Shown one piece after another: positions 602-13,558 of a stretch of 34,820 nucleotides of DNA. The number at the start of each line of letters is the position of its first letter. Positions within the stretch are counted from its first letter, which is position 1. This DNA is from Dirinaria sp. TL-2023a (taxonomy: Eukaryota): NCBI GenBank assembly GCA_051941275.1, contig JAVEBF010000069.1, positions 1 through 34,820 of the forward strand. The letters run 5' to 3'. The notes beneath the pieces are model-generated. The model was not told the origin of the DNA and made no database searches. It saw only the letters and a list, made by a program, of their open reading frames with translations. Made by a program: the position numbers and the translations under genes.

Positions 602-2010
602 ATGCCGTCTTTGACCTCCATGGCTGAGGCCACACTGGCACATGCAAAGAAGCTGGACGCCTACCTAGAGAGCAACAACATCTCGTATCCATCCTTCGAC
701 GAGGATACACTCGATCAGCTGCCTGACGAACTCCAGGATGACCGCTGGGCGCTCGCCAACTCCAGCAACGAGCTGAAGAAACTGGCCCGTGGAGCTGCGA
801 TGGGTACTATGGACACAGCTTTGAGTGTAGGTGCGCACCCTCTCGGCTTACCTCTGCTCCTTACATTTTGCGGGCTGTCACCTACTTCAGATGCCCGGCA
901 CTGAGTTCATCTCTTGATTGCCAGACTGCCTAGAAGCTGACGTCTGCATTGCTTCTGTTCTTCTTCCTGTAGTGGGTAGATGCTCTCGGTCTACGTATCG
1001 TCTACCACTATAAATTGGCTAACGCGGTTCCATTGGATGGCACCGCCTCGTACGCGGAGATCTCCGCCGCCTCAGGACTTAAAGAGAGCTTCTGCCAGCG
1101 CTTCATCCGCCTGGCAATGGGGACTAACGTCTTCGACGAGGACCCCGAGACCAAGCGCGTACGGCACACGGCTGCTTCGCGACAGCTGGCCACCGACCTG
1201 GGTCTTTGTGATGCCGTTGGGCTCGAGCTTGAAGACATCGCGCCCGCCTCAGCCAAGCTTATTGATGTGTGGAATAAGTACGGCCAGGATAGCAGCGAGC
1301 CGACCGAGGCTGCCTTTTCCTTGTACAATGAGACCGACAAAACAGTCTTTGCCGTGTTGGCGAGCCAGCCCGAGCGCGGTCGTCGCTTCGGCGGCGCCAT
1401 GCGCTTTTTCACCAAGGGTGACAGCTGGAACCTCCGCCACATGCTAGCTTCGTTTGACTGGCCCTCCGTCGACAAGCCGGGAGATGTTGTTGTCGACATC
1501 GGTGGCGGAAACGGTCAGATCAGCCAGTATCTCGCTCGCCATACCAGCAACACCCGCTTTATCATCCAGGACCTTCCACACGTCGTGTCTGAGGCGCCGG
1601 CGCAGCTGCCCGACGATCTCAAGAGCCGAATTGACTTCGTCGTCCACGACTTCTTCACACCGCAAACCATGGACCCGCCACCCGCAGCGTTCTTGCTCCG
1701 TTACATTCTACATAATTGGAGCGACAAATATTCTGTCAGCATTCTGCGCAACCTGGTTCCTGCTATGCGCAAGGGCTCCAAGGTGCTCATATACGAATAC
1801 GTGCTCGAAGACGGACCAGTCACAGAATTGACAGCCCGCTTTGGCTTCCAGATGGATGGCATTATGGCCACCTTTTTCAACGCGCAGGAGCGGACTGCCA
1901 GAGAATTTGAGCGCGTGCTCGCGGCGGCAGATAAACGCTACGTCGTAGAAGCTGTACGGCGGCCGAAGGGCAGCACCATGAGTATCGTAGAAGTGGGTTG
2001 GTCGGGCTAA
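602..2010 (+). CDS. Fungal secondary-metabolite O-methyltransferase (class II, OmtA/OmtB-like), about 420 aa; exons 602-826 and 973-2010
   Basis: GTAGGT...TAG intron 827-972 joins the two ORFs in frame (ALS|WVDALGLRIVYHYKLANAVP). N-terminus YLESNNISYPSFDED, SAM-binding motif VVDIGGGNG, IIQDLP, HDFFTPQ, catalytic-His motif ILHNWSD and C-terminal AQERT are all present. Confidence 0.93.
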
Positions 2011-2710: not shown

Positions 2711-5700
2711 ATGTCGTCTGTCCAAGTGCTCTACTTCGGAGATCAGTCTGTCGAACCATACGACTCTATTACAGACCTGCTGAGAGAAACCCGAGCTTCG
2801 AATGTCCTGGCCCAGTTTCTGCAGTCCGCCTTCGAGCCCTTGCAGGCTGCAATCTCGGCTCTGCCGCCTGCCGAAAAGTCTCTTTTCCTTGGTAGAGACT
2901 TTGCCCAACTCGTCCAGCATGTACAAGCCAATGGGATCTGTCATGCCGCTGTTTCGACGGTACTCAGCTGCGTTACTCAGTTGGGTTGGACGGTAGTGTC
3001 AGAGAGCTTGCCCCAAAGCCTGGACCGGTCATAGTTAACAGACTGCCTCAGACACAGAGAGCGCCATCCGGAGCTGTGGAGTGAACACGTTGAACGCACC
3101 TTCGTGGGCGTATGTACTGGAACTCTTCCGGCAACCGCAGCAGCAGCCGCTTTGTCAGATAGTGACTTGCTGAGATTGGCCCCTGCCTTTGTGGGGCTGT
3201 CGCTTCGGCTCGGTCTCGAAGTATCCCGTCGAGCTCTGCCTTTCGAGAAATCACATGAATCCTGGTCAGTTGCTATTTCCGGCGTCTCTGTTGAGACAGT
3301 CAGGGAGGAGTCATGGCGATTCAATCAATCCAAGGTTTGTGGCCGGTCGACCAACGTCCGAAGCTTGTAGAGACTAATTATCTCGTAGAACACTCCCACG
3401 TACAAGCGAATATACGTAAGTGCATATTCGGCTTTATCAGTGACGCTCAGCGGGCCACCCTCTTGCATCCGAGATTTCCTTTCTTCAGAACCAATGCATT
3501 CAGCACGGAAACTCCCACTTCCCATTTATGGCTTGTTCCATGCCCCTCACTTGCTCTTGTCAGGACTTGGTGAGATCATTGGCTCATCGGAGCTTTTCGA
3601 CCGCCCTGTGAGAAATTGCGGATGTCTTCTTCGTCCAAAGTTGCAGAGCAACTCAGATGGTCCCCCTCTCAGGGAGCTACTCGAACGTGCTGTGAGCGAG
3701 ATCTTGCAAGCGCCTCTGGATATGGACGATGATGTTCAGCAGATTCTCAGGCGAACTCAAGGCCGTGATCTGCAACTGACATCCATTGGACCGGCTCGTA
3801 TGAGCCATCTACAACGTACCTTGAACCCTGCGAGTGTCCATCGATTGGGTGCGAGGAAGCTGCAGTCACAGGAGAGCCACGTCCGTTCCCCAGACTTTGG
3901 GAAATCGATTGCAATTGTAGGAATGGCGGGAAGATTTCCAGACGCCCAGAACGTGGAAGAGCTCTGGAACGTCCTGATCGAGAACCGAGACTTACATCGA
4001 ATCGTAAGTGGCCGCAGTTCTTGAGTACCTGAGCCGGAAATTGATTGTCTTGCCCAAGATACCTATTGATCGTTTTGATATCCGCACCCATGTGGATCCC
4101 ACGGGAAAAGTTAAGAACACCAGTTTGACTCCGTATGGATGTTTCGACGAACACGTCGGCGAGTTTGACACTTCCCTGTTCAAGATGTCACCAAGGGAGG
4201 CTGCTCAGACAGACCCAATGCAGCGAATGATGTTGCTTACTGCCTATGAAGCTTTGGAATCCGCCGGCTACTACGACAGCGGTGATCCGGAGGCTCGTCC
4301 AAGGAATGGAACATTCTACGGGGTTGCAGGCGACGATTACCGTCAAGTAAATTCTGGTCAAGACGTGAATGTCAACTACATCACTGGTGGCACTCGAGCA
4401 TTTGGGCCCGGACGAGTCAGTTATTACTTTGGCTGGGAAGGCCCAAGTATGAGCGTTGACACTGCTTGCTCCGCAAGTGCTGTAGCCATGCACCAAGCTA
4501 TTTCTAGTTTGAGGCTGGGAGAGTGCGATGTCGCATTAGCAGGAGGTGCCAATCTTTTGACTTGTTCAGACATGTTTGCTGGGTTGAGTCGTGCAAAGTT
4601 CGTCTGCTCGACCGGCCCTTCGAAGACATTCGACGAGACAGCCGACGGCTACTGTAGAGCGGACGCTACCGCCACGGTCGTTCTGAAGCGCTTCAACGAC
4701 TCTGCCAGGGACAAGGACAATATTCTCGGCGTAATTCATGCGATTGAAACCCACCACGCAGGGACGGCCATCTCGCTCACGCATCCGGAGGCGGACACGC
4801 AAACAGCGCTGTTTGAGAGCGTCCTCAGATCTGCGGGAATCAGCATTGATGACATTGACCACATTGAGCTACACGGTACTGGCACACAAGCTGGCGACTT
4901 GGCCGAGGCATCCTCTGTTGTCAGACTTCTCAAGGAGCCGCGACCCATCGACAGGCCCCTGACCATCAGCTCTGTCAAGCCCAATGTCGGCCATTCAGAA
5001 GCGGCTTCTGGAGTAACGTCCTTGATAAAAGGCCTGTTAATGCTGCAACACCGAACAATTCCTCGGCATATCGGAGTCAAGACCAGTCTTAACCCCAAAT
5101 TACCGCGTTTGGATGACTTCAACGTAGTGATTCCGCAGACGAACATGCCTTATGTAGCCTTGGGCAAGGACTCTCTACGAAGAATGCTCGTGAACAATTT
5201 CAACGCAACTGGAGGAATTACTGCGATGCTCTTGGAGGAATACCGCCCGCCTAAAGCCATCGCCAAAGATTTACGGCATCACTATCCAATGACGCTCTCT
5301 GCAGCCAGTGCGATGACCTTGTCTCATAGCCAGACTCGGCTCCTGGAGCACTTGAAGTCTACTGCGAATATAGAGCTTTCACATCTGTCTTACACTCTCT
5401 CGGCAAGACGGTTGCATCACAAGCACCGTTTTGCCTGTGTTGCATGCTCCACTGAAGAACTCATCCACAAGCTCCAGGCCGAGTTATCAACTTCGGAACT
5501 CGCTTTGAAGCGGAGCACATCGGCCTTTGGCGTGATGGTGTTTACTGGCCAAGCTTCATCCTACTCTGGTATGGCAAATGTTCTTTTCACGACTAATGAT
5601 GCTTTCCGAAGCCACGTTCTTCGCTCCGACGCTATCTGTCGAGAGATGGGACTGCCACCGTTCGTTCAGCTCATCACGGATATCGAGGCTGACATTTCTC

Positions 5701-8198
5701 GGTCTAACCCGACTCAGTGCCAGCTGGCCCTAGTTGCCCTCGAGGTAGCCCTTGCGTCTCTTCTCGAATCTTGGGGTATTCGGCCCAAAGCCGTTGTTGG
5801 TCATAGCCTAGGAGAATACAGTGCCCTCTGCGTTTCGCAAGTCCTGAGTCTCGCGGACACTCTTTACCTCGTCGGACAGCGGGGGTTGCTTCTCGAATCC
5901 ACATGCAAATACGAAGAATTTACAATGGCCATGGTGTCGTTACCGTCTTGCGAAGTGGAGAAGGCCTTACGCTTGTCACTATCCTCAGAATGCGAGATTG
6001 CCTGCCTTAATGCGCCTGATCAGACCGTGGTGAGTGGGCCTCGTATGGACATGGAGTCGTTGATAGCACAATTCCAAGCCAACAACGTCCGGGCCACCAG
6101 GCTCCGGACGCCATACGCATTTCACTCGAAGCAAATGGAGGCAATTTTGTCAAAATATGAACAAATCGCTGAGCCTATCTCTTTCAGGAAGCCTTCGGTG
6201 CCGCTGGTCTCGACTCTGCTTGGAGAGGTTATCCGAAAGGAAGGAACACTGAACCCTCAGTACCTATGTCGTCAAACCCGAGAGCCTGTTAGATTTCAGG
6301 ACGCACTGTACAAAATAGAAGGCCTAGTGGAAGACGAACAGATCCTTTTTTGGATAGAAGTTGGACCTGGCCCAACCTGCTTACCCATGATCGCTTCAAC
6401 CATCCGAGCGAGGCCAACCGATCTCGTGTGTGCTCTCGATCCGAGGAAGCCAAATTGGCTCACGATCAGCAACCTTGTCGCTGAATATTACAGTAGCAAC
6501 GGAGATGTCCGATGGAATGAATACCACAAAGAGTATCTAGACGCCTTGAACCTACTACAATTGCCTTCATATCCATTCGACTTGAAGAAATACTGGATTC
6601 AGTATGATGGAGATTGGGCCATCCGCAAGAACACGAAGGCATCCGACCAGTCGCAGGCGGCCCAGGCAGTTGCACAGACACTAGAAAGTTCTACTTTGCA
6701 CCGCTTGGACAGTTCATCCGTGGAGAAAGGAATCCGGAGGCTTCTTTTTACCTCCAATTTGGGCACTGGAGACTTGGGATCCATGTTGGGGCTTTACGAG
6801 GTCAATGGACAGCTCATGTGCCCCAGCTCCATTTATGTGGACATGGCGTTGACTGCTACTTCTTATCTTTACAAGAAGTGGGGCCACGGCTTGAACTCTC
6901 CAGCGATGGAAGTTTCGGCGTTGGAACTATGCTCGGGTTTAGACCTCTGTAGGGGACAGTCCATCAAAGTCGTCGCAACACAACGCCCGTCCGATACCAA
7001 CATCGTCGAAATTTCGATCTCATCCTCGAATCATGCTGCTGCTGCGGTTGAGCAGGTGCGGTGCAAGGTAATCACTGGCGATGGCGAAGATTGGGCATCC
7101 GATGCAAACAGCAACGCCTATTTGTACCAATCTCGCATGGACCTTCTCAACTTCTTCCTAACCAACGGCAAAGTGTCAAGACTTTCACAGTCGGAGGTTT
7201 ATCAGCGGTTTTCTAGTTTTGTTGGTTATGAGAAGAGTTTCCAGGGCATCCAAGAGGTATTGCTCAACCTGGAGAGTTCAGAAGCCGTAGCCAAAATCAG
7301 GCTGTCTTCGAACAAGGGTATGTTGATGTGTGATCCGCGTTGGCTCGACAATTTCACGCAGGTGGCAGACTTAATCGTCAATTATAGCACTGCCAAACCT
7401 AAGCTCACTTGCCGTGGCTGGAATAGAATGCACATTCTGCTCCCTTTGCAGCCCGATGCCATCTACCGAGTTCACGCGCGGATGCAGCCTTGCGGGCAGG
7501 CAAATTCCATGATCGGTGATATGCACGTCCTGGACGAAGCAGGTTGTGTGGCTGTTGTGATTAAGCACATCCGTTTCGAACCCGTGTCGGGCTCCAAGCT
7601 AAACGCAGCGCCAATCGAAATCCCCAATGGCGCAAATAAAACCCCATACGCCAGCAGTAGCCAGACCCCGAATTTCCCCAGGGTTAATGGAATATTCGAT
7701 AATAGGACCCAACCACCAAACATCTCTGAAGGCAACAGGAACGCCCATTATGCTCCTCCTGTTAATCACGCGAAGCCTTTTGCCATGGAGAAGGTACCCA
7801 ACGGCGTCAGTAGCGGCGTCTCAGAAGATCAGCGCTTGAACGAGCCCCTTCAGCCGAGCGCCGCCGTCAACGGCGACATACCTGACATGCCACCAATCTC
7901 TATCTCAGCTTCCCCCGATGCAGTGCCAGAGCAGCTGCGCAACGGGAAAGCTTCGAATGGCAGCAGCGGTAGAGCCGTCGATTTTAACGAAATACTAGCT
8001 GTCATGGCAGACGAGATTGGCGTCAGCTCCGATAGTCTGACCGACGATGTTCTGCTCGACGAGCTTGGCGTCGACTCTATCATTCAGATCTCGCTCATCG
8101 CGCGTATTCAAGATTATCTGGCTAAGCCTGTTTCCCCCAGCTTGCTCGTTGACTGCAACAGCATCGCCAAGCTTCGTTTCTTCTTTGCAACCCATTAG
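2711..8198 (+). CDS. Non-reducing iterative type I polyketide synthase, SAT-KS-AT-PT-ACP, about 1774 aa, with no TE, R or cMT domain; predicted exons 2711-2997, 3052-3334, 3389-4003, 4059-8198
   Basis: SAT: YFGDQS, GVCTG, FHAPHL. KS: IAIVGMAGRFP, DTACSAS, HGTGT, GHSEAASG. AT: GHSLGE, YAFHS. PT: VNGQLMCPSSIYVDMA and WLDNFTQ. ACP: LGVDSI, followed by the stop. Three GT-AG introns restore a continuous frame; the first donor (GTCAGA) is the least certain. Confidence 0.95.
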
Positions 8199-8568
8199 AT
8201 GAGCAACGGCCTTCGCCTTCTTTCTGTCACGGGCTGGAAAGCAGTTGTCAAGGAGCTGTAAAAACATTCTCTTCGCACTGGCGTGTTGCATGGGAGAGGG
8301 AATGACGCATTTCCCACTTTGAATCCCTCCTTTGTTTTCTATCTTGCCGTCTCCCAGCCTTATTGCAGCGTGCTGGAAGAGAATTAAAAGCCAAGATCAA
8401 AGAGCGTGACAAGGCCAAAACTATTGTCTCAGAAGTGAGTAAAAGATTGAGCTGACCGCCGAAAACCAGCTTGACAAAATTCGTACTGAGATCTGCTGCA
8501 ACGAGCTCTATCCAAAGCCGTGATGAGCGGGCGCTGTGATCGCTTCTCGAAACTCTCAAATCTGACCG

Positions 8569-8582
8569 GAGAGAGAGAGAGA
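8569..8582. repeat. Short (GA)n microsatellite
   Basis: gagagagagagaga. Confidence 0.7.
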
Positions 8583-9474
8583 AAGGATGTATTCCGTAGC
8601 TGCGGCAAATGGCATGATACTAGTTCAGCAAGCCGCGTCCGCACATGAATAACGCCGGATACTTCTCGCACGGATATATCTCTGAATGCCGATTCCCTAC
8701 TGTAGGGATGACCGTCTAGATTACAGCTTTACAGTAGTGCCTATCGGGTTTGCGAACCTCTTCTAAGGCCCCCAATCATACTTGCCGTCTTTGCACACCT
8801 TCCCAGCCAGCGAGCTTACGCGTCATCGCAGCTCAAAACCGTGGGGGGCAAGGATGTCTTTGAAAGGAAGTTTTTTTGTGTGTGTCCAGGTGTAGAAGTC
8901 GCAGTTGCTATCCTGCTTTGGTGGAGGGATGCGATAGCTACAATAGAAACAATGAGGAGCCGTAAATACCGTTAAATACAAAGAATCTTCTGGATGCTGC
9001 TTACCTTACTGCTTGAAGCAGTGGGAGATCATCGGCTCTTGATAGCATGACTGCTATATGTGTGTTCTTGGCTGAGGTTCTCCATCGTGCCACCGAATCA
9101 GGGGTTCGCAGGCAAAATCACCCCGCTTTCGGTCCGCATCGCACTTTGCAGGTTTGCGTGCATATCGGGGTTCAAAAACATACTTTACCTACTCGGAAAG
9201 TAAGAGATCTAAGGCAAGCCTTGGAGCTTAGATACCCAAGATACTTATTAGGAGAGATAGGCGACCTGCGTGATTGCCATCGGTAGTAGACAGTACCTAG
9301 GTACCACTTTACCATTCGAAAATAGCTTACGCTAGTAAGCTAAGGTCATAGATACGTTCCTCACGCAGCACCATTTTACCTGGGACCCTTTGATCTAATC
9401 ACGGGAAAATCTACAAGCGGACGAGGGAAAAGAAACGCTACCTGAGTCGCTTGCATGGACGGGGTACAGTAGCA

Positions 9475-11304
9475 ATGACTCGCGCCGCAGCCGTGGATTC
9501 GGACGACAACAACGCAGTGCTTCGGGCCCTTGTCTCCAGGTACACAGGCGCAAACGGAGCGAAACTTCCTCACGATGCGCTATTTGCGGACGTAGGGCTC
9601 GATTCGATCGCGGCGGTGCAATTCGCCGGCGAGCTGCTCGCCATTTTCGGGTGCGAGATACACTCGGACGAGCTCTTTGAGATCTCGTTTGGGACTCTTG
9701 GAGAGTATCTTCAAGGACTGAGACCTAGTGCAGCAGCACCAGCACCAGCAGCTGTAGTCGGATCGTCTTCCAAGTCGCACACTGCGAATACCCCATCACC
9801 GCCTGTGGATCGAGGCCTGGTGCAGCAGTGCCACGGAGCTAGATCTGCGCACCTCTTGCAGGTGCTCTCAGGCGTGTCTGGCGTTTCAATTGAACAGGTC
9901 ACAGCCAACCAAACCTTGGGCGAGCTTGGGATCGATTCTTTCTTGTTTGTAGAGCTACAGCATCAGCTGGAAGAATTCTACCGTGTGCAGGTGAAGAACA
10001 AGCAGCTGGATCTCGACTGGACCGTGCAGGACTTGATCGATTTCGCTCGCATCGCCGAAGTAGACCTGCCGCACGCATCTCCAAACAATCGAGCAATCCA
10101 GAAGGATGCGGCGATATCAAGTTCCGTTTCAGAGCCGCAGCCACAAGGTGAACGTCTGCCGAACCCGTTCATAGCTCTTGCGCATTCCGACTCTCGATTC
10201 GAAAATGCAGCAAGAAAACGCCGGTTCGATAGCTACTGGGACAATGTTGCGCCTCTTCAGAATGATCTTGTGCTGGCATACATCATTGAAGCCTTCCGTT
10301 TCCTCGGAGTAGACTTGTCTGAATACCCACATGGAACCGAGATTCCTCTGGTCGAGCACATCCCAAGGTACGAACGCCTCATGCAGAGGCTGTTGGACAT
10401 CCTCGAGAGCCGCTACATTATCATACAGCGCGCCGGCAAGGTTCTTAGAGGCAGCGATAGGATCGACGTCACCACGTCCTCACAGCTCTGCCAGACCCTA
10501 CGGTCACAGCATCCTCAATTTGAATGTGAAGCTAATCTTATGGCCCTAATTGGACCTAAGGTCGCTGACTGCATCAGCGGCAAAATCAATCCAGTAACAG
10601 TCCTCTTTGGCAGCGCGGCATCACTGAATGTCATGGAAGACTTTTACGCAAGTGCACCCATGATGTCCGCGTCTACAGATCAGCTTATCGGATTTCTCAT
10701 CGCCATTCTGCGCTCCGCAGACTACAGCCGGGAGCATCCAATCCGCATCCTTGAGGTGGGCGCCGGGACAGGGGGAACGACTGCCCGACTAGCGGAGATG
10801 CTGGCGGCGGCCGGTATCGAGGTAGATTATGCATTCACCGACGTCGGCACGGCCTTCGTGACCAAAGCTAAAGCTAGATTTGGAAATCGTTACCCGTGGA
10901 TGAGATTCGAGGTGCTAAATCTGGAGCACGACATGCCGGCTGGGCTCCGGGGCCAGTACGACATCACGCTGGGCGCCAATGTTGTGCACGCAACATCTGA
11001 TCGGATCGCGACTTGCCGCCGTCTGCGCGAGACGCTGCGGCCTGACGGATTTATAGTCCTGTCCGAGGTCACTCACGTAATCGATTGGTACGACATCTGC
11101 TTCGGTCTGCTCGAGGGCTGGTGGCTCTCAGATGGCGGCAAAGGTTACCCCATTCAGCACGCCCACACGTGGATGGACACATTCGACCGCGCCGGATTTA
11201 GCAGCATGAGCTTCTCGACAGGGCCGACTGAGGAAGCTAATAGTCAGCAGCTGCTTGTCGCTTCCAACAAAACGTGGAACATGCCGAATTCCACCGTGAC
11301 TTGA
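9475..11304 (+). CDS. Stand-alone ACP-ACP-C-methyltransferase (PKS cMT-type) tridomain protein, about 609 aa, intronless
   Basis: ACP1 FADVGLDSIAAVQF (Ser codon 9604-9606), Ala/Pro/Ser linker, ACP2 LGELGIDSFLFVEL (Ser codon 9937-9939). cMT motifs ILEVGAGTGGTT, YAFTDVG, GANVVHAT, VLSEVT, FGLLEGWW. The first ATG is at 9475 and there is an in-frame stop upstream at 9391-9393. Confidence 0.9.
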   Translation: MTRAAAVDSDDNNAVLRALVSRYTGANGAKLPHDALFADVGLDSIAAVQFAGELLAIFGCEIHSDELFEISFGTLGEYLQGLRPSAAAPAPAAVVGSSSKSHTANTPSPPVDRGLVQQCHGARSAHLLQVLSGVSGVSIEQVTANQTLGELGIDSFLFVELQHQLEEFYRVQVKNKQLDLDWTVQDLIDFARIAEVDLPHASPNNRAIQKDAAISSSVSEPQPQGERLPNPFIALAHSDSRFENAARKRRFDSYWDNVAPLQNDLVLAYIIEAFRFLGVDLSEYPHGTEIPLVEHIPRYERLMQRLLDILESRYIIIQRAGKVLRGSDRIDVTTSSQLCQTLRSQHPQFECEANLMALIGPKVADCISGKINPVTVLFGSAASLNVMEDFYASAPMMSASTDQLIGFLIAILRSADYSREHPIRILEVGAGTGGTTARLAEMLAAAGIEVDYAFTDVGTAFVTKAKARFGNRYPWMRFEVLNLEHDMPAGLRGQYDITLGANVVHATSDRIATCRRLRETLRPDGFIVLSEVTHVIDWYDICFGLLEGWWLSDGGKGYPIQHAHTWMDTFDRAGFSSMSFSTGPTEEANSQQLLVASNKTWNMPNSTVT

Positions 11305-11764
11305 GTGCTGGTCACAGACAGTTGGAAGCATTGCGTGCAAAAGGAGCTTTTGGTAAGACAGTACAGTAGGTAGTCGACAGAAATACCGGCCCCCTCGGAT
11401 GACAATCAGCCACGGAACGGAGAAGGAGCCCTTCGCCCATGTGAAATGCGTAGAGTCAGCGCTTCTAGCCGAGTGCAAATACACTGCAGCATCGATTCTC
11501 GTTCCTTCTCTTCTTGATTCTATGCCACCAATTTGGGCTCGCCGTTCATAAAGTAAGGTAGCTGGCAGCTCTGGTGTAGCCCTTACCTGATTGGAGCTAG
11601 ACTACGCGGCTATTGCGCCTTGCGCGTCAAATGCAATGACGTATATGATTGGTGGTTACGCAGCTCGATTTCAAGTTGATAAAGAATTCGGGAAAGGTAA
11701 AGTCATTCAGTCTAGAGCGTCTCATGATCCGGTAAAGCTATTCGGAGGCAGCTCAACTCACGAA

Positions 11765-13558
11765 ATGCAATGGGCAAAGCCAGTCCCACGTGTGTTGCAG
11801 ACAGCACGTAAAGCAACTAGAAAACCTGTAACCCGTTGTATACGTGATCCAAAACCTCGGCAATTCAGCAGTCGAATTAGATCATCCAGGAAGATTCCCT
11901 CAAGACAGGCGGCTCTAGGATGCCTTTTTGCTCTTGGTGCAGGGACTGTTTTCTACTCCGGTATTATAGGGATCAGTGAGCTTCACGCAGACTCACCGCC
12001 AGCGCCAGTCGACTTCACAGTCGAGAAGACCCCCAAGAGAAGTGGTCTATCGAAAGAAGACAGTCGAGACTCGATCAGCTCCCAACATGTACAGGTAAGA
12101 CGAAGCTGGGAAAATCCCGGTGTGTATTGCTGGGGATCGAACAGCGGACGCGTAGCAGCCCCAGACTCAGACGAGAATATAGTAAGGTCACCAAGGCGAA
12201 TAGAGTTCTTCGATGGCGTGCTGCTGCGAGATATGAAGCTCGATCGAGATTTTGGAGTAGCAATTCTAGAGAATGGAGACCTTTTACAGTGGGGAACTGG
12301 ATTTTCACCAAACGCACGACAGCCGGTAGCAACCCTTAAGGGTAAAGGACTTGTCGCCTGCGAAATTTCGAAAGACAGAATTATAGCGCTTTCAAAGTCT
12401 GGAAATGTCTATTCCCTTCCTGTTTCTCAAGATGAACAATCCGCCGGCCCTAAACCGGATGAGCGCTCCTGGATCCCTTTCTTTTCCAATGCCTCCCCTA
12501 TAAGCTACCGCAGACTCAACCCATCTGGCCTGTCATACTCTGAGAAGATATCTTCCATATCGTCGGGGTTAGAACATGTTCTTCTCCTTACCAACACCGG
12601 CCGGGTGTTCTGTGCCGCTTCCAGTGGGGAAGAATACCCATCTAGAGGTCAGATGGGAGTTTCTGGGCTCACTTGGACTTCTCGGCCGCCAGGTCCGTAT
12701 GACCAACCGCATGAAATAACAACTTTACGAGGATTCGAGATCACTGATGTTGCAACTGGCGACTATCACTCCCTTGCTCTTGACCGTGAAGGCCGCGTCT
12801 TCGCCTTCGGTGATAACTCAACAGGTCAATTGGGATTCGAACCTTCCGCTGATTCTCCTTTCATCGATACCCCGTCTCTCTTACCTACCCAGCGTCTATA
12901 CAGCGGCACATCTTTGTCTGCTCGGATCACCGGTATTGCAGCAGGGGGTTCTAACTCCTTCTTTACGGTCGATGCCACTCGCGTTGCAAGGCCAAATGGA
13001 GATAGTGCAGCCCCTGGTATCGGATTAGGAAGAGCCACAGCTGATACCTGGTCATGTGGCCTCGGAATATACGGCACCCTCGGTAATGGAAGATGGACCC
13101 ACGTCCAGGGCACACCCATTAAAGTCAAGGCCCTCAGCGGCCTGTATGAGTACGATGAGATTGCCAATCGAGTAGTGCCCATCCGACTCAAACGCCTGTC
13201 GGTGGGTTCAACGCAAGCCTCTGCGACAATGGACAACGTGACGCATGTGCACGCCGGCACCAGCGCAGATGCTGACAGCGAAAATGACACTAATTGGGGG
13301 GCTGATGTTCTCTGGTGGGGTGGTAATGAGTTCTGGCAGCTGGGCACGGGGAAAAGGAACAATGTCGCAGCACCGGGCTATATTGCACCCCTGGACAATG
13401 CTGCAGATGTGGCAGCTAAAGGGAAGAAGAAAGGGGAGAAGCAGCATAGGTTCCAGATCACGCCGCGGCACACTGTCACTCTACACGGGAGGGAAGTCAG
13501 TATGGAGCAGAAGGTTGAGTGTGGAAGAGGATTGAGTGCGGTGTATTCATCCGTTTGA
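11765..13558 (+). CDS. FMP25: Mitochondrial RCC1-repeat protein, FMP25-like
   Basis: Arg/Lys-rich presequence-like N-terminus from ATG 11765, a hydrophobic segment, then SWENPGVYCWGSNSG and RCC1 repeats (GLEHVLLL, GDYHSLAL..EGRVFAFGDNSTGQLG, WWGGNEFWQLGTGKR). Confidence 0.85.
   Translation: MQWAKPVPRVLQTARKATRKPVTRCIRDPKPRQFSSRIRSSRKIPSRQAALGCLFALGAGTVFYSGIIGISELHADSPPAPVDFTVEKTPKRSGLSKEDSRDSISSQHVQVRRSWENPGVYCWGSNSGRVAAPDSDENIVRSPRRIEFFDGVLLRDMKLDRDFGVAILENGDLLQWGTGFSPNARQPVATLKGKGLVACEISKDRIIALSKSGNVYSLPVSQDEQSAGPKPDERSWIPFFSNASPISYRRLNPSGLSYSEKISSISSGLEHVLLLTNTGRVFCAASSGEEYPSRGQMGVSGLTWTSRPPGPYDQPHEITTLRGFEITDVATGDYHSLALDREGRVFAFGDNSTGQLGFEPSADSPFIDTPSLLPTQRLYSGTSLSARITGIAAGGSNSFFTVDATRVARPNGDSAAPGIGLGRATADTWSCGLGIYGTLGNGRWTHVQGTPIKVKALSGLYEYDEIANRVVPIRLKRLSVGSTQASATMDNVTHVHAGTSADADSENDTNWGADVLWWGGNEFWQLGTGKRNNVAAPGYIAPLDNAADVAAKGKKKGEKQHRFQITPRHTVTLHGREVSMEQKVECGRGLSAVYSSV

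What the first reader, a model, noticed from the sequence alone, without database searches (positions are those of the whole stretch)
2711..11304. Split PKS system: TE-less NR-PKS next to a free-standing ACP-ACP-C-methyltransferase gene
Seen: the PKS stops right after one ACP (...FFFATH*, 8198). About 1.28 kb later a separate intronless ORF with its own ATG encodes exactly ACP-ACP-cMT and nothing else. Known: fungal cMT domains normally sit in cis within methylating NR-PKSs (SAT-KS-AT-PT-ACPn-cMT-TE/R). The trans-acting precedent I recall is the pseudoACP-MT didomain TlnC of the Trichoderma tricholignan pathway. Inference: this is a two-polypeptide synthase in which C-methylation, and possibly chain carriage, is supplied in trans, and the tandem-ACP version may be undescribed.
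Basis: partly seen in the sequence, partly recalled or inferred. Interest (0 to 1): 0.85.

Follow-up and report, generated by a model that had tools for sequence, protein, structure and literature searches.

The report
Two-gene fungal polyketide synthase with separate methyltransferase
A lichen fungus carries a polyketide synthase that lacks a release domain next to a separate gene for carrier domains fused to a C-methyltransferase, and this pairing recurs in many fungi, so it is probably an uncharacterised way of adding methyl groups to a polyketide from a second protein.

Summary
The PKS (2711-8198, four exons, SAT-KS-AT-PT-ACP) stops just after its only ACP. A separate 609-aa ORF (9475-11304) encodes ACP-ACP-C-methyltransferase, and housekeeping genes follow it.

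It is not a broken or badly spliced single PKS.
- 33 of 34 PKS relatives stop at the same place.
- Free-standing ACP-(ACP)-cMT relatives appear to share a contig with such a PKS in 18 other assemblies (lichens, Xylariales, Lasiodiplodia, Conoideocrella).
- In metagenome contig L002 the PKS lies on the opposite strand from the OMT and cMT genes.
- RNA contigs from a ~95%-identical lichen relative show the second gene with its own spliced 5' leader.

"Split" is misleading. The cMT protein nests among the cMT domains of methylating NR-PKSs, while its partner PKS groups with non-methylating ones. It looks like a captured C-terminal fragment.

The first ACP keeps its phosphopantetheine serine in 32 of 32 family members, unlike the pseudo-ACP of TlnC/UsgM. 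The second ACP is degenerate or missing in 16 of 32. The cMT His and Glu are invariant.

Function (C-methylation in trans, perhaps chain carriage) is inferred, not shown. I rate it a new variant of a known kind. I found no description in the open literature I searched.

The parts
602..2010 (+). O-methyltransferase gene (exons 602-826 and 973-2010; intron 827-972)
   Evidence: Pfam Methyltransf_2, E 2.7e-25. RNA contigs in 3 runs of one sample join 826 to 973 with GT..AG ends. It is 58% identical to the OMT beside the orthologous PKS in L002. ATG read.
2711..8198 (+). NR-PKS gene, SAT-KS-AT-PT-ACP, no release domain (exons 2711-2997, 3052-3334, 3389-4003, 4059-8198; about 1774 aa)
   Evidence: Translation and Pfam. 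Intron positions come from 18-codon gaps against orthologues P0073 and P0083 and from the GTAAGT..AG site at 4004-4058. 100% identical to the NCBI model P0058 of Dirinaria sp. TL-2023a, which lacks the SAT exons.
2729..3541 (+). SAT domain (interrupted by two 54-nt introns); GXCXG cysteine present (VGVCTG)
   Evidence: Pfam SAT profile positions 1-239 are matched consecutively by three pieces. Sequence read.
3905..5078 (+). KS domain (DTACSAS, HGTGT and NVGHSE motifs present)
   Evidence: Pfam ketoacyl-synt E 2.4e-60 and Ketoacyl-synt_C E 3e-30. Motifs read.
5535..6416 (+). Malonyl acyltransferase domain (GHSLGE)
   Evidence: Pfam Acyl_transf_1, E 1.5e-42. Motif read.
6738..7595 (+). Product-template (PT) region, divergent: the usual GHxV histidine reads LYEV here
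   Evidence: Weak Pfam PKS_DH_N and PS-DH hits. Alignment of 52 PT regions.
7989..8174 (+). The PKS's single ACP (serine codon 8076-8078); stop codon at 8196-8198
   Evidence: Pfam PP-binding, E 3.7e-10. 33 of 34 relatives end 0-22 residues after the same KLRxFF motif.
8199..9474 (.). Intergenic spacer. It holds the PKS 3' UTR and the 5' leader of the next gene (leader exon at least 9246-9292; leader intron 9293-9351, alternative acceptor at 9344)
   Evidence: No Pfam domain on either strand and no transposon-like repeats. RNA contigs run through the PKS stop to 8390, 8413 or 8924. RNA contigs join 9292 to 9352 or 9345 with GT..AG ends.
9475..11304 (+). Free-standing ACP-ACP-C-methyltransferase gene, intronless coding region, 609 aa
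   Evidence: Orthologues of 580-616 aa share the same N-terminus. RNA contigs cover it completely.
9517..9759 (+). ACP1 (GLDS, Ser44 codon 9604-9606)
   Evidence: Pfam PP-binding. Serine kept in 32 of 32 family members. 38% identical between lichens and Xylariales, against 14% for the following linker.
9871..10089 (+). ACP2 (GIDS, Ser155 codon 9937-9939)
   Evidence: Second PP-binding stretch and an ACP_SdgA_C hit. Serine kept in 16 of 32, lost in 4 of 32, domain absent in 12 of 32. No more conserved than its linker.
10222..11265 (+). C-methyltransferase domain (SAM motif LEVGAGTGG; His505 codon 10987-10989; Glu531 codon 11065-11067)
   Evidence: Pfam HTH_51 and Methyltransf_12. Matches the citrinin PKS CMeT structure 5mpt at E 6.4e-64 over residues 250-597. 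His and Glu invariant in 32 of 32.
11591..13558 (+). RCC1-repeat gene: the first of the housekeeping genes that mark the right border of the cluster
   Evidence: Pfam. Further right lie a kinase, COG3, ribosomal S2, importin, TCP-1 and bromodomain genes.

Best explanation
This is a conserved two-protein non-reducing PKS system in a lichen-forming fungus (the contig matches Dirinaria sp. TL-2023a).

Protein 1 is a SAT-KS-AT-PT-ACP synthase with no release domain and no methyltransferase. Protein 2 is a separately transcribed ACP-ACP-cMT. It descends from the C-terminal part of a different, methylating NR-PKS lineage and has co-evolved with protein 1 ever since.

The most likely mechanism has three steps.
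1. During iterative chain extension, the free cMT domain (SAM site and His505/Glu531 intact) C-methylates alpha-carbons of beta-ketoacyl thioester intermediates made by protein 1.
2. ACP1 of protein 2, whose phosphopantetheine serine is kept in every member, is a real holo-carrier. The synthase's AT and KS can load and extend it, or at the least it tethers the cMT to the synthase. Either way the chain is presented to the cMT. ACP2 is a dispensable spare.
3. The neighbouring O-methyltransferase then methylates a hydroxyl of the released product.

Shown here: two genes, a conserved pairing, intact catalytic motifs, expression of gene 2 and the OMT in a close relative, and the mosaic origin. Inferred: the trans-methylation itself, the carrier role of ACP1, the release route and the product.
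For: Separate genes:
- The stop right after the ACP is conserved in 33 of 34 PKS relatives. None has a precomputed MT or TE Pfam domain.
- In L002 the orthologous PKS (45% identity, same C-terminus) is on the minus strand. The OMT (58% identity) and ACP-cMT (39%) are on the plus strand.
- Locus tags put 1-2 genes between the pair in Hypoxylon texense, Xylaria bambusicola, Conoideocrella and Lasiodiplodia.
- RNA contigs of a ~95%-identical relative carry gene 2 with a spliced GT..AG leader intron. They retain the stretch that holds the in-frame TGA upstream of the ATG.

Partnership:
- 18 pairs of hits share the same longest-contig length.
- Both trees show the same three subclades: the L002 group, the Sordariomycete/Lasiodiplodia group and the lichen group.

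Functional cMT:
- E 6.4e-64 to the PksCT CMeT structure.
- His505, Glu531 and the SAM motif are invariant.
- The cMT part is 57-64% identical across fungal classes.

Holo-ACP: the ACP1 serine is kept in 32 of 32, and ACP1 is more conserved than its linker.

Origin:
- The free cMT family is one clade of 32 rows (SH-aLRT 98) nested among the cMTs of fused NR-PKSs.
- Its partner's KS-AT groups with non-methylating NR-PKSs and is separated from all 25 cMT-bearing ones by branches with support 100.

Precedent: free-standing ACP-like-MT proteins TlnC and UsgM methylate NR-PKS-bound chains in trans (PMC8597850, passages read).
Against: - No biochemical or genetic evidence exists for this family, and the product is unknown.
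- RNA evidence comes from one sample of a relative, as assembled contigs only. The PKS contigs are unspliced over introns 1 and 2, so correct PKS mRNA is not demonstrated.
- ACP2 is lost or degenerate in half of the family and is no more conserved than a linker. This argues against a need for tandem carriers.
- In the known precedents the ACP-like domain is not a carrier, so a docking-only role for ACP1 remains possible.
- No release enzyme was found in the window, whose cluster is cut by the left contig end. None was found in the 21.7 kb of L002 examined either.
- The PT domain lacks the usual histidine, so the chemistry may be atypical.
- Equal contig length is only indirect evidence that two proteins share a contig.
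Confidence: 0.7

Rival explanations
1. Docking-only model. The ACP domains of protein 2 are not carriers. Like the pseudo-ACP of TlnC/UsgM, they only bind the synthase (for example competing at the KS to pause elongation), so that the cMT can methylate the chain held on the PKS's own ACP.
For: The characterised trans cMTs work this way according to PMC8597850 (passages). ACP2 has lost its serine in 4 of 32 members and is absent in 12 of 32, and it is no more conserved than its linker. The PKS has an ACP of its own with the serine.
Against: The ACP1 serine is kept in 32 of 32 members across at least three fungal classes, whereas the pseudo-ACPs replaced it (DPL). A pure docking role puts no obvious constraint on that residue.
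Confidence: 0.2
2. Starter-unit model. Protein 2 builds a methylated starter or extender on its own ACP (for example methylmalonyl- or 2-methylacetoacetyl-ACP). The SAT domain of the PKS, an ACP-to-ACP transacylase, takes it over.
For: The SAT keeps its active-site cysteine (VGVCTG). ACP1 looks holo-competent. No HR-PKS or FAS that could supply a starter lies in the window or in L002. Starter-unit C-methylation on an ACP is discussed for other fungal PKSs (PMC13749307 abstract; PMC12953777 passages citing UttA).
Against: Protein 2 has no AT or KS to load itself. NR-PKS-type cMT domains of this lineage normally act on growing beta-keto chains (my recall of PksCT work, not tested here). An intact SAT cysteine is also normal for acetyl-primed NR-PKSs.
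Confidence: 0.07
3. Artefact or decay. The two ORFs are one conventional PKS gene interrupted by a long intron, an insertion or an assembly error, or the second ORF is a decaying fragment.
For: The two ORFs lie on the same strand 1276 nt apart. The record is a metagenome-assembled contig, and the deposited gene model of the PKS is incomplete.
Against: The stop position is conserved in 33 of 34 relatives. The genes are on opposite strands in L002. There are intervening genes in four named genomes. No transposon features are in the spacer. An independent DNA-run contig and RNA contigs are colinear through the stop. The leader is spliced and an in-frame stop lies upstream of the ATG. Catalytic residues are invariant. 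The two proteins have discordant phylogenies.
Confidence: 0.02

Closest known systems
TlnC (tricholignan pathway, Trichoderma) and UsgM (ustilaginoidin pathway, Ustilaginoidea virens): free-standing pseudo-ACP-MT didomain C-methyltransferases
   Same: A separate gene encodes an ACP-like domain fused N-terminally to a PKS-type cMT. It sits beside an NR-PKS that has no cMT of its own. Those proteins are reported to methylate the ACP-bound growing chain in trans, with the ACP-like domain essential (PMC8597850, passages).
   Different: Their ACP-like domain has lost the phosphopantetheine serine (DPL). Here ACP1 keeps it in 32 of 32 members, and this window has two ACPs. UsgM's partner has a TE; this partner has none. 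The only Trichoderma hit (P0040, 394 aa, no ACP part, 31% identical) lies in another part of the cMT tree, so an independent origin is likely. I could not verify that P0040 is TlnC, because the primary paper is not held.
CMeT domain of the citrinin synthase PksCT (PDB 5mpt)
   Same: Same domain type, with an N-terminal helical subdomain plus a Rossmann fold. E 6.4e-64 over residues 250-597, with the NxVHAT and LxE motifs aligned.
   Different: In PksCT the domain sits in cis within SAT-KS-AT-PT-ACP-CMeT-R (architecture recalled). Here it is on a separate polypeptide with its own ACPs.
Fused NR-PKSs SAT-KS-AT-PT-ACP-ACP-cMT(-TE), e.g. P0104, P0123 and locus L003
   Same: Their ACP-ACP-cMT part is 38-44% identical to the free protein over its full length, and they are its nearest neighbours in the cMT tree.
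   Different: Their KS-AT is only 30-36% identical to the window's PKS and lies across a branch with support 100 in the KS-AT tree. Their cMT is in cis.
TerA/TerB (6-hydroxymellein): an NR-PKS working with a truncated PKS fragment
   Same: A fragment of another PKS class, kept as a separate protein, supplies a tailoring activity in trans to an NR-PKS (PMC12953777, passages).
   Different: TerB supplies a ketoreductase and its cMT is inactive. Here the fragment supplies a cMT and carrier domains.
Clade V TE-less NR-PKSs (AdaA, VrtA, StpA) released by metallo-beta-lactamase-type thioesterases
   Same: SAT-KS-AT-PT-ACP architecture with no release domain (PMC12139152, passages).
   Different: No metallo-beta-lactamase gene is in the window or in L002. 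Clade membership was not tested against named references.

Membership tests
Fungal non-reducing PKS | SAT domain with the GXCXG cysteine | tested here: met
   Pfam SAT profile positions 1-239 are matched across three exons. VGVCTG read.
Fungal non-reducing PKS | KS with Cys-His-His and MAT with GHSxG | tested here: met
   Pfam hits. DTACSAS, HGTGT, NVGHSE and GHSLGE read. Which residues are catalytic is recalled.
Fungal non-reducing PKS | PT domain with the catalytic His (GHxV motif) and Asp | tested here: not met
   In 52 aligned PT regions all but one (P0099) of the 17 non-family rows have the His, while the window reads LYEV with no His within 3 residues. The Asp column is kept (LDNF). That these are the catalytic residues is recalled from PksA work. 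Fold not tested.
Fungal non-reducing PKS | ACP with the phosphopantetheine serine | tested here: met
   GVDS in PP-binding, E 3.7e-10.
PKS-type C-methyltransferase domain (PksCT CMeT-like) | Sequence homology over both subdomains, SAM-binding glycine-rich motif, and the His/Glu pair | tested here: met
   HTH_51 plus Methyltransf_12. 5mpt at E 6.4e-64. LEVGAGTGG, His505 and Glu531 invariant. The role of the His/Glu pair is recalled.
Pseudo-ACP-MT trans-acting C-methyltransferases (TlnC/UsgM) | Free-standing gene with an ACP-like domain N-terminal to the MT, beside an NR-PKS that lacks a cMT | tested here: met
Pseudo-ACP-MT trans-acting C-methyltransferases (TlnC/UsgM) | ACP-like domain has lost the phosphopantetheine serine (DPL instead of DSL) | tested here: not met
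   ACP1 serine in 32 of 32 members. ACP2 serine in this window and in 16 of 32. Definition taken from PMC8597850.
Pseudo-ACP-MT trans-acting C-methyltransferases (TlnC/UsgM) | Common descent with TlnC/UsgM | tested here: inconclusive
   The Trichoderma harzianum hit P0040 and its relative P0039 fall outside the 32-row family clade. Their identity with TlnC is unverified, and UsgM was not among the hits.
Pseudo-ACP-MT trans-acting C-methyltransferases (TlnC/UsgM) | Demonstrated methylation of the partner's ACP-bound chain in trans | not testable with these tools
   Needs expression or in vitro assay.
Clade V TE-less NR-PKS with a metallo-beta-lactamase thioesterase partner | Neighbouring or dedicated metallo-beta-lactamase-type thioesterase | tested here: inconclusive
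   None in the window or in the 21.7 kb of L002. However, the window's cluster is cut at the left contig end, and such partners can lie elsewhere (PMC12139152).

The most novel reading that the evidence does not exclude
The free protein is a true mobile carrier module. The synthase's AT and KS load and extend chains on the trans ACP1 as well as on the cis ACP, and only chains riding on ACP1 are presented to the fused cMT. Which carrier is used in a given cycle would then decide whether that cycle is methylated. That would be a way of programming regiospecific C-methylation by partitioning between carriers. It would have evolved by capture of the ACP-cMT tail of one NR-PKS by an unrelated TE-less NR-PKS with a degenerate PT domain.
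Probability: 0.3. Interest if true: 0.78.

Novelty: new variant of a known kind. Interest (0 to 1): 0.62.

Why it matters
How iterative fungal PKSs decide which cycles are C-methylated is still poorly understood. The two characterised trans-acting cMTs carry dead ACP-like domains. This family spans at least 32 proteins across lichens, Xylariales, Lasiodiplodia, Conoideocrella and unnamed metagenome fungi. Its members keep a serine-bearing ACP fused to the cMT and always sit beside one clade of TE-less NR-PKS.

That gives a natural, separable system for three experiments:
- mutating the carrier serine;
- swapping carriers;
- asking whether methylation needs the chain on the trans carrier.

It also shows that a C-terminal PKS fragment from one lineage can be recruited by another lineage, which is useful for engineering methylation into non-methylating NR-PKSs. 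Finally, it flags an uncharacterised cluster (OMT + PKS + ACP-cMT, with a P450 in L002) expressed in a lichen thallus, where very few clusters are linked to products.

Tried and rejected
- Transposon or insertion in the spacer: the repeat finder on 7900-9800 gave only two short chance direct repeats and one palindrome. Spacer ORFs on both strands have no Pfam hit.
- RNA cover of the spacer: no contig was laid on about 8925-9245. I do not use this as evidence. The flanking loose end at 9246 looks like diverged colinear sequence, so contigs there may simply fall below the 90% likeness cut.
- Fused relatives of this PKS clade longer than 2443 aa: the 'longer' search gave 1 irrelevant hit among 6153 candidates. 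The tool itself rates this as weak evidence.
- Primary TlnC paper: not held by DOI or PMC id. A 'TlnC' word search returned unrelated papers. TlnC properties are therefore taken second-hand from PMC8597850.
- The window's own genome is not held, so I could not look for a release enzyme elsewhere in the genome.
- Earlier findings of this scan: three look-ups, nothing returned.
- The Lasiodiplodia modular PKS paper (PMC13749307, outline and abstract) concerns a different system. PMC12368960 and PMC13293291 (passages) only list domain strings. PMC12142736 and the Dirinaria search (listing only) added nothing.
- Product prediction from lichen or Xylariales chemistry: considered and dropped as guesswork.
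- Structure or complex prediction: not run. The homology to 5mpt is already decisive for the fold, and enzyme-carrier pairs are poor cases for the complex tool.

Full report
**What is there.** The window equals a whole 34,820-nt contig. Its PKS exon is 100% identical to an NCBI model from the metagenome-assembled lichen fungus Dirinaria sp. TL-2023a (P0058).

On the plus strand lie three genes:
- An O-methyltransferase gene (602-826 and 973-2010).
- An NR-PKS gene starting at ATG 2711. It has introns at 2998-3051, 3335-3388 and 4004-4058, placed by gaps against orthologues.
- After 1276 nt, a 609-aa ORF from ATG 9475 to the stop at 11302-11304.

Pfam reads the PKS as SAT, KS, AT, a weak PT and one ACP, with nothing after it. 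It reads the second ORF as two PP-binding domains, HTH_51 and Methyltransf_12. The methyltransferase part matches the solved CMeT domain of the citrinin synthase at E 6.4e-64 (5mpt). Everything to the right of 11304 is housekeeping: RCC1, kinase, COG3, ribosomal S2, importin, TCP-1 and bromodomain genes. The cluster therefore ends there on the right and is cut by the contig end on the left.

**Are these really two genes?** Four independent lines say yes.

1. *Conserved stop.* A search with the PT-ACP part returned 42 proteins. Of these, 34 (P0058-P0091) belong to the family. 33 of them end 0-22 residues after the same ACP motif KLRxFF. The exception, P0090, is a model cut before the ACP. None carries a precomputed MT or TE Pfam domain.
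2. *A recurring partner protein.* A search with the 609-aa protein found free-standing relatives of about 450-660 aa in unnamed lichen-type assemblies (59-94% identity), Letrouitia, Hypoxylon, Xylaria, Nemania, Conoideocrella and Lasiodiplodia.
   - In 18 cases the cMT hit and a PKS hit have the same longest-contig length. That is indirect evidence for one contig.
   - Locus tags confirm proximity, with one or two genes in between: Hte_008153/008156, RRF57_006088/006091, QQS21_008658/008660 and O1611_g540/g542.
3. *Opposite strands in a relative.* Metagenome contig L002 holds the orthologous PKS (45% identical over 1398 columns, same C-terminus) on the minus strand. The OMT (58% identical to the window's) and the ACP-cMT (39%) are on the plus strand, followed by a P450. 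No splicing can fuse those. L001 is another stand-alone copy.
4. *RNA contigs.* Three RNA-seq runs of one lichen sample come from a relative about 95% identical.
   - They cover the PKS 3' end straight through the stop, to 8390, 8413 and 8924.
   - They cover the second gene with a leader exon (at least 9246-9292) spliced to 9352 or 9345 with GT..AG ends.
   - The retained stretch 9352-9474 contains the in-frame TGA at 9391-9393, so this mRNA cannot encode a fusion.
   - The OMT intron is spliced as well.
   - A contig from a second, probably DNA, run (X4; listed as 'DNA?') is colinear through the stop.
   - Caveats: one sample and contigs only, and the PKS contigs are unspliced over introns 1 and 2.

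**Is the second gene under constraint?** Yes.
- Among 32 family members (window, 30 proteins and L002), His505, Glu531 and the SAM motif are invariant.
- Between the lichen and Xylariales groups the cMT is 57-64% identical, ACP1 38%, ACP2 27% and the linkers 14-28%.
- The ACP1 serine is present in 32 of 32.
- ACP2 has the serine in 16 of 32, has lost it in 4 (P0011, P0102, P0108, L002), and is absent in 12. Some of those 12 may be gene-model errors.
- The conserved architecture is therefore serine-bearing ACP plus cMT. The tandem ACP seen here is a retained but dispensable extra.

**Where did it come from?** I built a tree of the cMT region with 89 rows.
- Row selection: hits with at least 330 aligned residues, at most 3000 aa, and at least 40.3% identity to the window's cMT, plus 8 more distant rows that I chose.
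- Method: quick IQ-TREE with LG+G4.
- Result: the free-standing family forms one clade of 32 rows (SH-aLRT 98), nested among the cMT domains of fused NR-PKSs such as P0123, P0104, P0101 and the ACP-ACP-cMT-hydrolase P0024.
- The Trichoderma harzianum and Xylariaceae short cMTs (P0040, P0039; no ACP part) sit elsewhere, beside other fused PKSs.

The KS-AT tree (51 rows, same method) puts the 16 family PKSs with 8 non-methylating TE- or R-bearing NR-PKSs. All 25 cMT-bearing NR-PKSs fall on the other side, and both branches have support 100. KS-AT identity is 38-45% to the former and 30-36% to the latter. By contrast, the free ACP-ACP-cMT is 38-44% identical to the tails of the latter.

The pair is thus a mosaic. 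The tail of a methylating NR-PKS became a separate gene and the partner of an unrelated TE-less NR-PKS. Both trees then show the same three subclades, which fits co-inheritance. Both trees are quick searches on similarity-selected rows, and the root of the cMT tree rests on one long bacterial row.

**How it most likely works.** By homology the cMT is a PKS-type, SAM-dependent alpha-carbon methyltransferase. Its only plausible substrate source is the neighbouring synthase, which has no cMT of its own.

The published precedents are TlnC and UsgM. According to PMC8597850 (passages read):
- both are free-standing pseudo-ACP-MT didomains;
- they act on the ACP-bound growing chain;
- the pseudo-ACP is essential and is thought to hold back KS elongation.

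The difference here is the strictly conserved ACP1 serine. It points to a phosphopantetheinylated domain that either carries malonyl or acyl units served by the partner's AT and KS, or needs the arm for docking.

I commit to trans C-methylation during chain assembly, with ACP1 as a functional holo-domain (confidence 0.7 for the whole statement and about 0.5 for true chain carriage). The rivals are a docking-only role (0.2), a role in making a methylated starter for the SAT (0.07), and artefact or decay (0.02).

Release is unexplained. No TE, R or metallo-beta-lactamase gene is in the window or in L002. The PT region also lacks the histidine that all but one of the 17 non-family rows keep. Spontaneous or PT-independent release, for example as a pyrone, is possible but is speculation.

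**Novelty.** Six full-text searches covered trans-acting, standalone or discrete C-methyltransferase, the strings ACP-MT, ACP-ACP-MT and ACP-CMeT, and pseudo-ACP. In the open-access library they found only TlnC and UsgM as trans cMTs. TerA/TerB appeared as another PKS-fragment partner (PMC12953777, passages). An unstudied 'ACP-MT-Te' PKS-like gene is listed for Aspergillus niger (PMC12368960, table passage). Subscription literature and supplements were not seen. I therefore rate this as a new variant of a known kind: the concept is known, but this serine-bearing family, its dedicated TE-less partner clade and its mosaic origin appear undescribed.

Noticed in passing
window 6738-7595 (PT region; motif near 6792-6824): The PT domain lacks the histidine of the GHxV motif that all but one of the 17 non-family NR-PKS rows keep. 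The window reads LYEV, and several lichen orthologues also have no His within one residue. Xylariales have His one position earlier and Glu instead of the second-motif Asp. The PT may be catalytically atypical.
   Followed up: partly
window 2998-3051 and 3335-3388: PKS introns 1 and 2 are both exactly 54 nt with in-frame stops, and intron 1 has an unusual GTCAGA donor. RNA contigs of the relative run unspliced through both, while contigs break at intron 3 (4004-4058). The deposited NCBI model (1473 aa) omits the SAT exons altogether.
   Followed up: partly
window 9246-9352: The ACP-ACP-cMT mRNA has a 5'-UTR intron with two alternative acceptors (exon resumes at 9345 or 9352) in RNA contigs of a close relative. 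In that relative an upstream in-frame ATG adds 7 residues (P0004); the window has TTG there.
   Followed up: partly
window 8199-8924: One RNA contig (run X2) continues about 725 nt beyond the PKS stop, with an 89-nt gap relative to the window (8732-8820, no GT..AG ends). This may be a long 3' UTR, read-through, or a strain indel.
   Followed up: no
proteins P0020/P0086 and P0028/P0087 (Xylaria bambusicola): One species holds two paralogous PKS + ACP-cMT pairs on different contigs. One pair has a two-ACP partner (591 aa) and the other a one-ACP partner (497 aa). The one-ACP form is common in Xylaria and Nemania.
   Followed up: partly
L002 11729-12688 (minus strand): A cytochrome P450 gene directly follows the ACP-cMT gene in the metagenome relative. 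The window has a housekeeping RCC1 gene at that place, so the accessory gene set differs between lineages.
   Followed up: no
L003 5840-13024: A fused SAT-KS-AT-PT-ACP-ACP-cMT gene is followed in other frames by Abhydrolase_3 and Peptidase_S9 pieces (probably a TE exon). It is an example of the lineage from which the free ACP-cMT seems to derive.
   Followed up: partly
window 11591-34820: The rest of the contig is a run of housekeeping genes (RCC1-like, protein kinase, COG3, mitochondrial-type ribosomal S2, importin, TCP-1 chaperonin, VanZ-like, bromodomain proteins). The biosynthetic genes therefore sit at the very edge of the assembled contig.
   Followed up: partly
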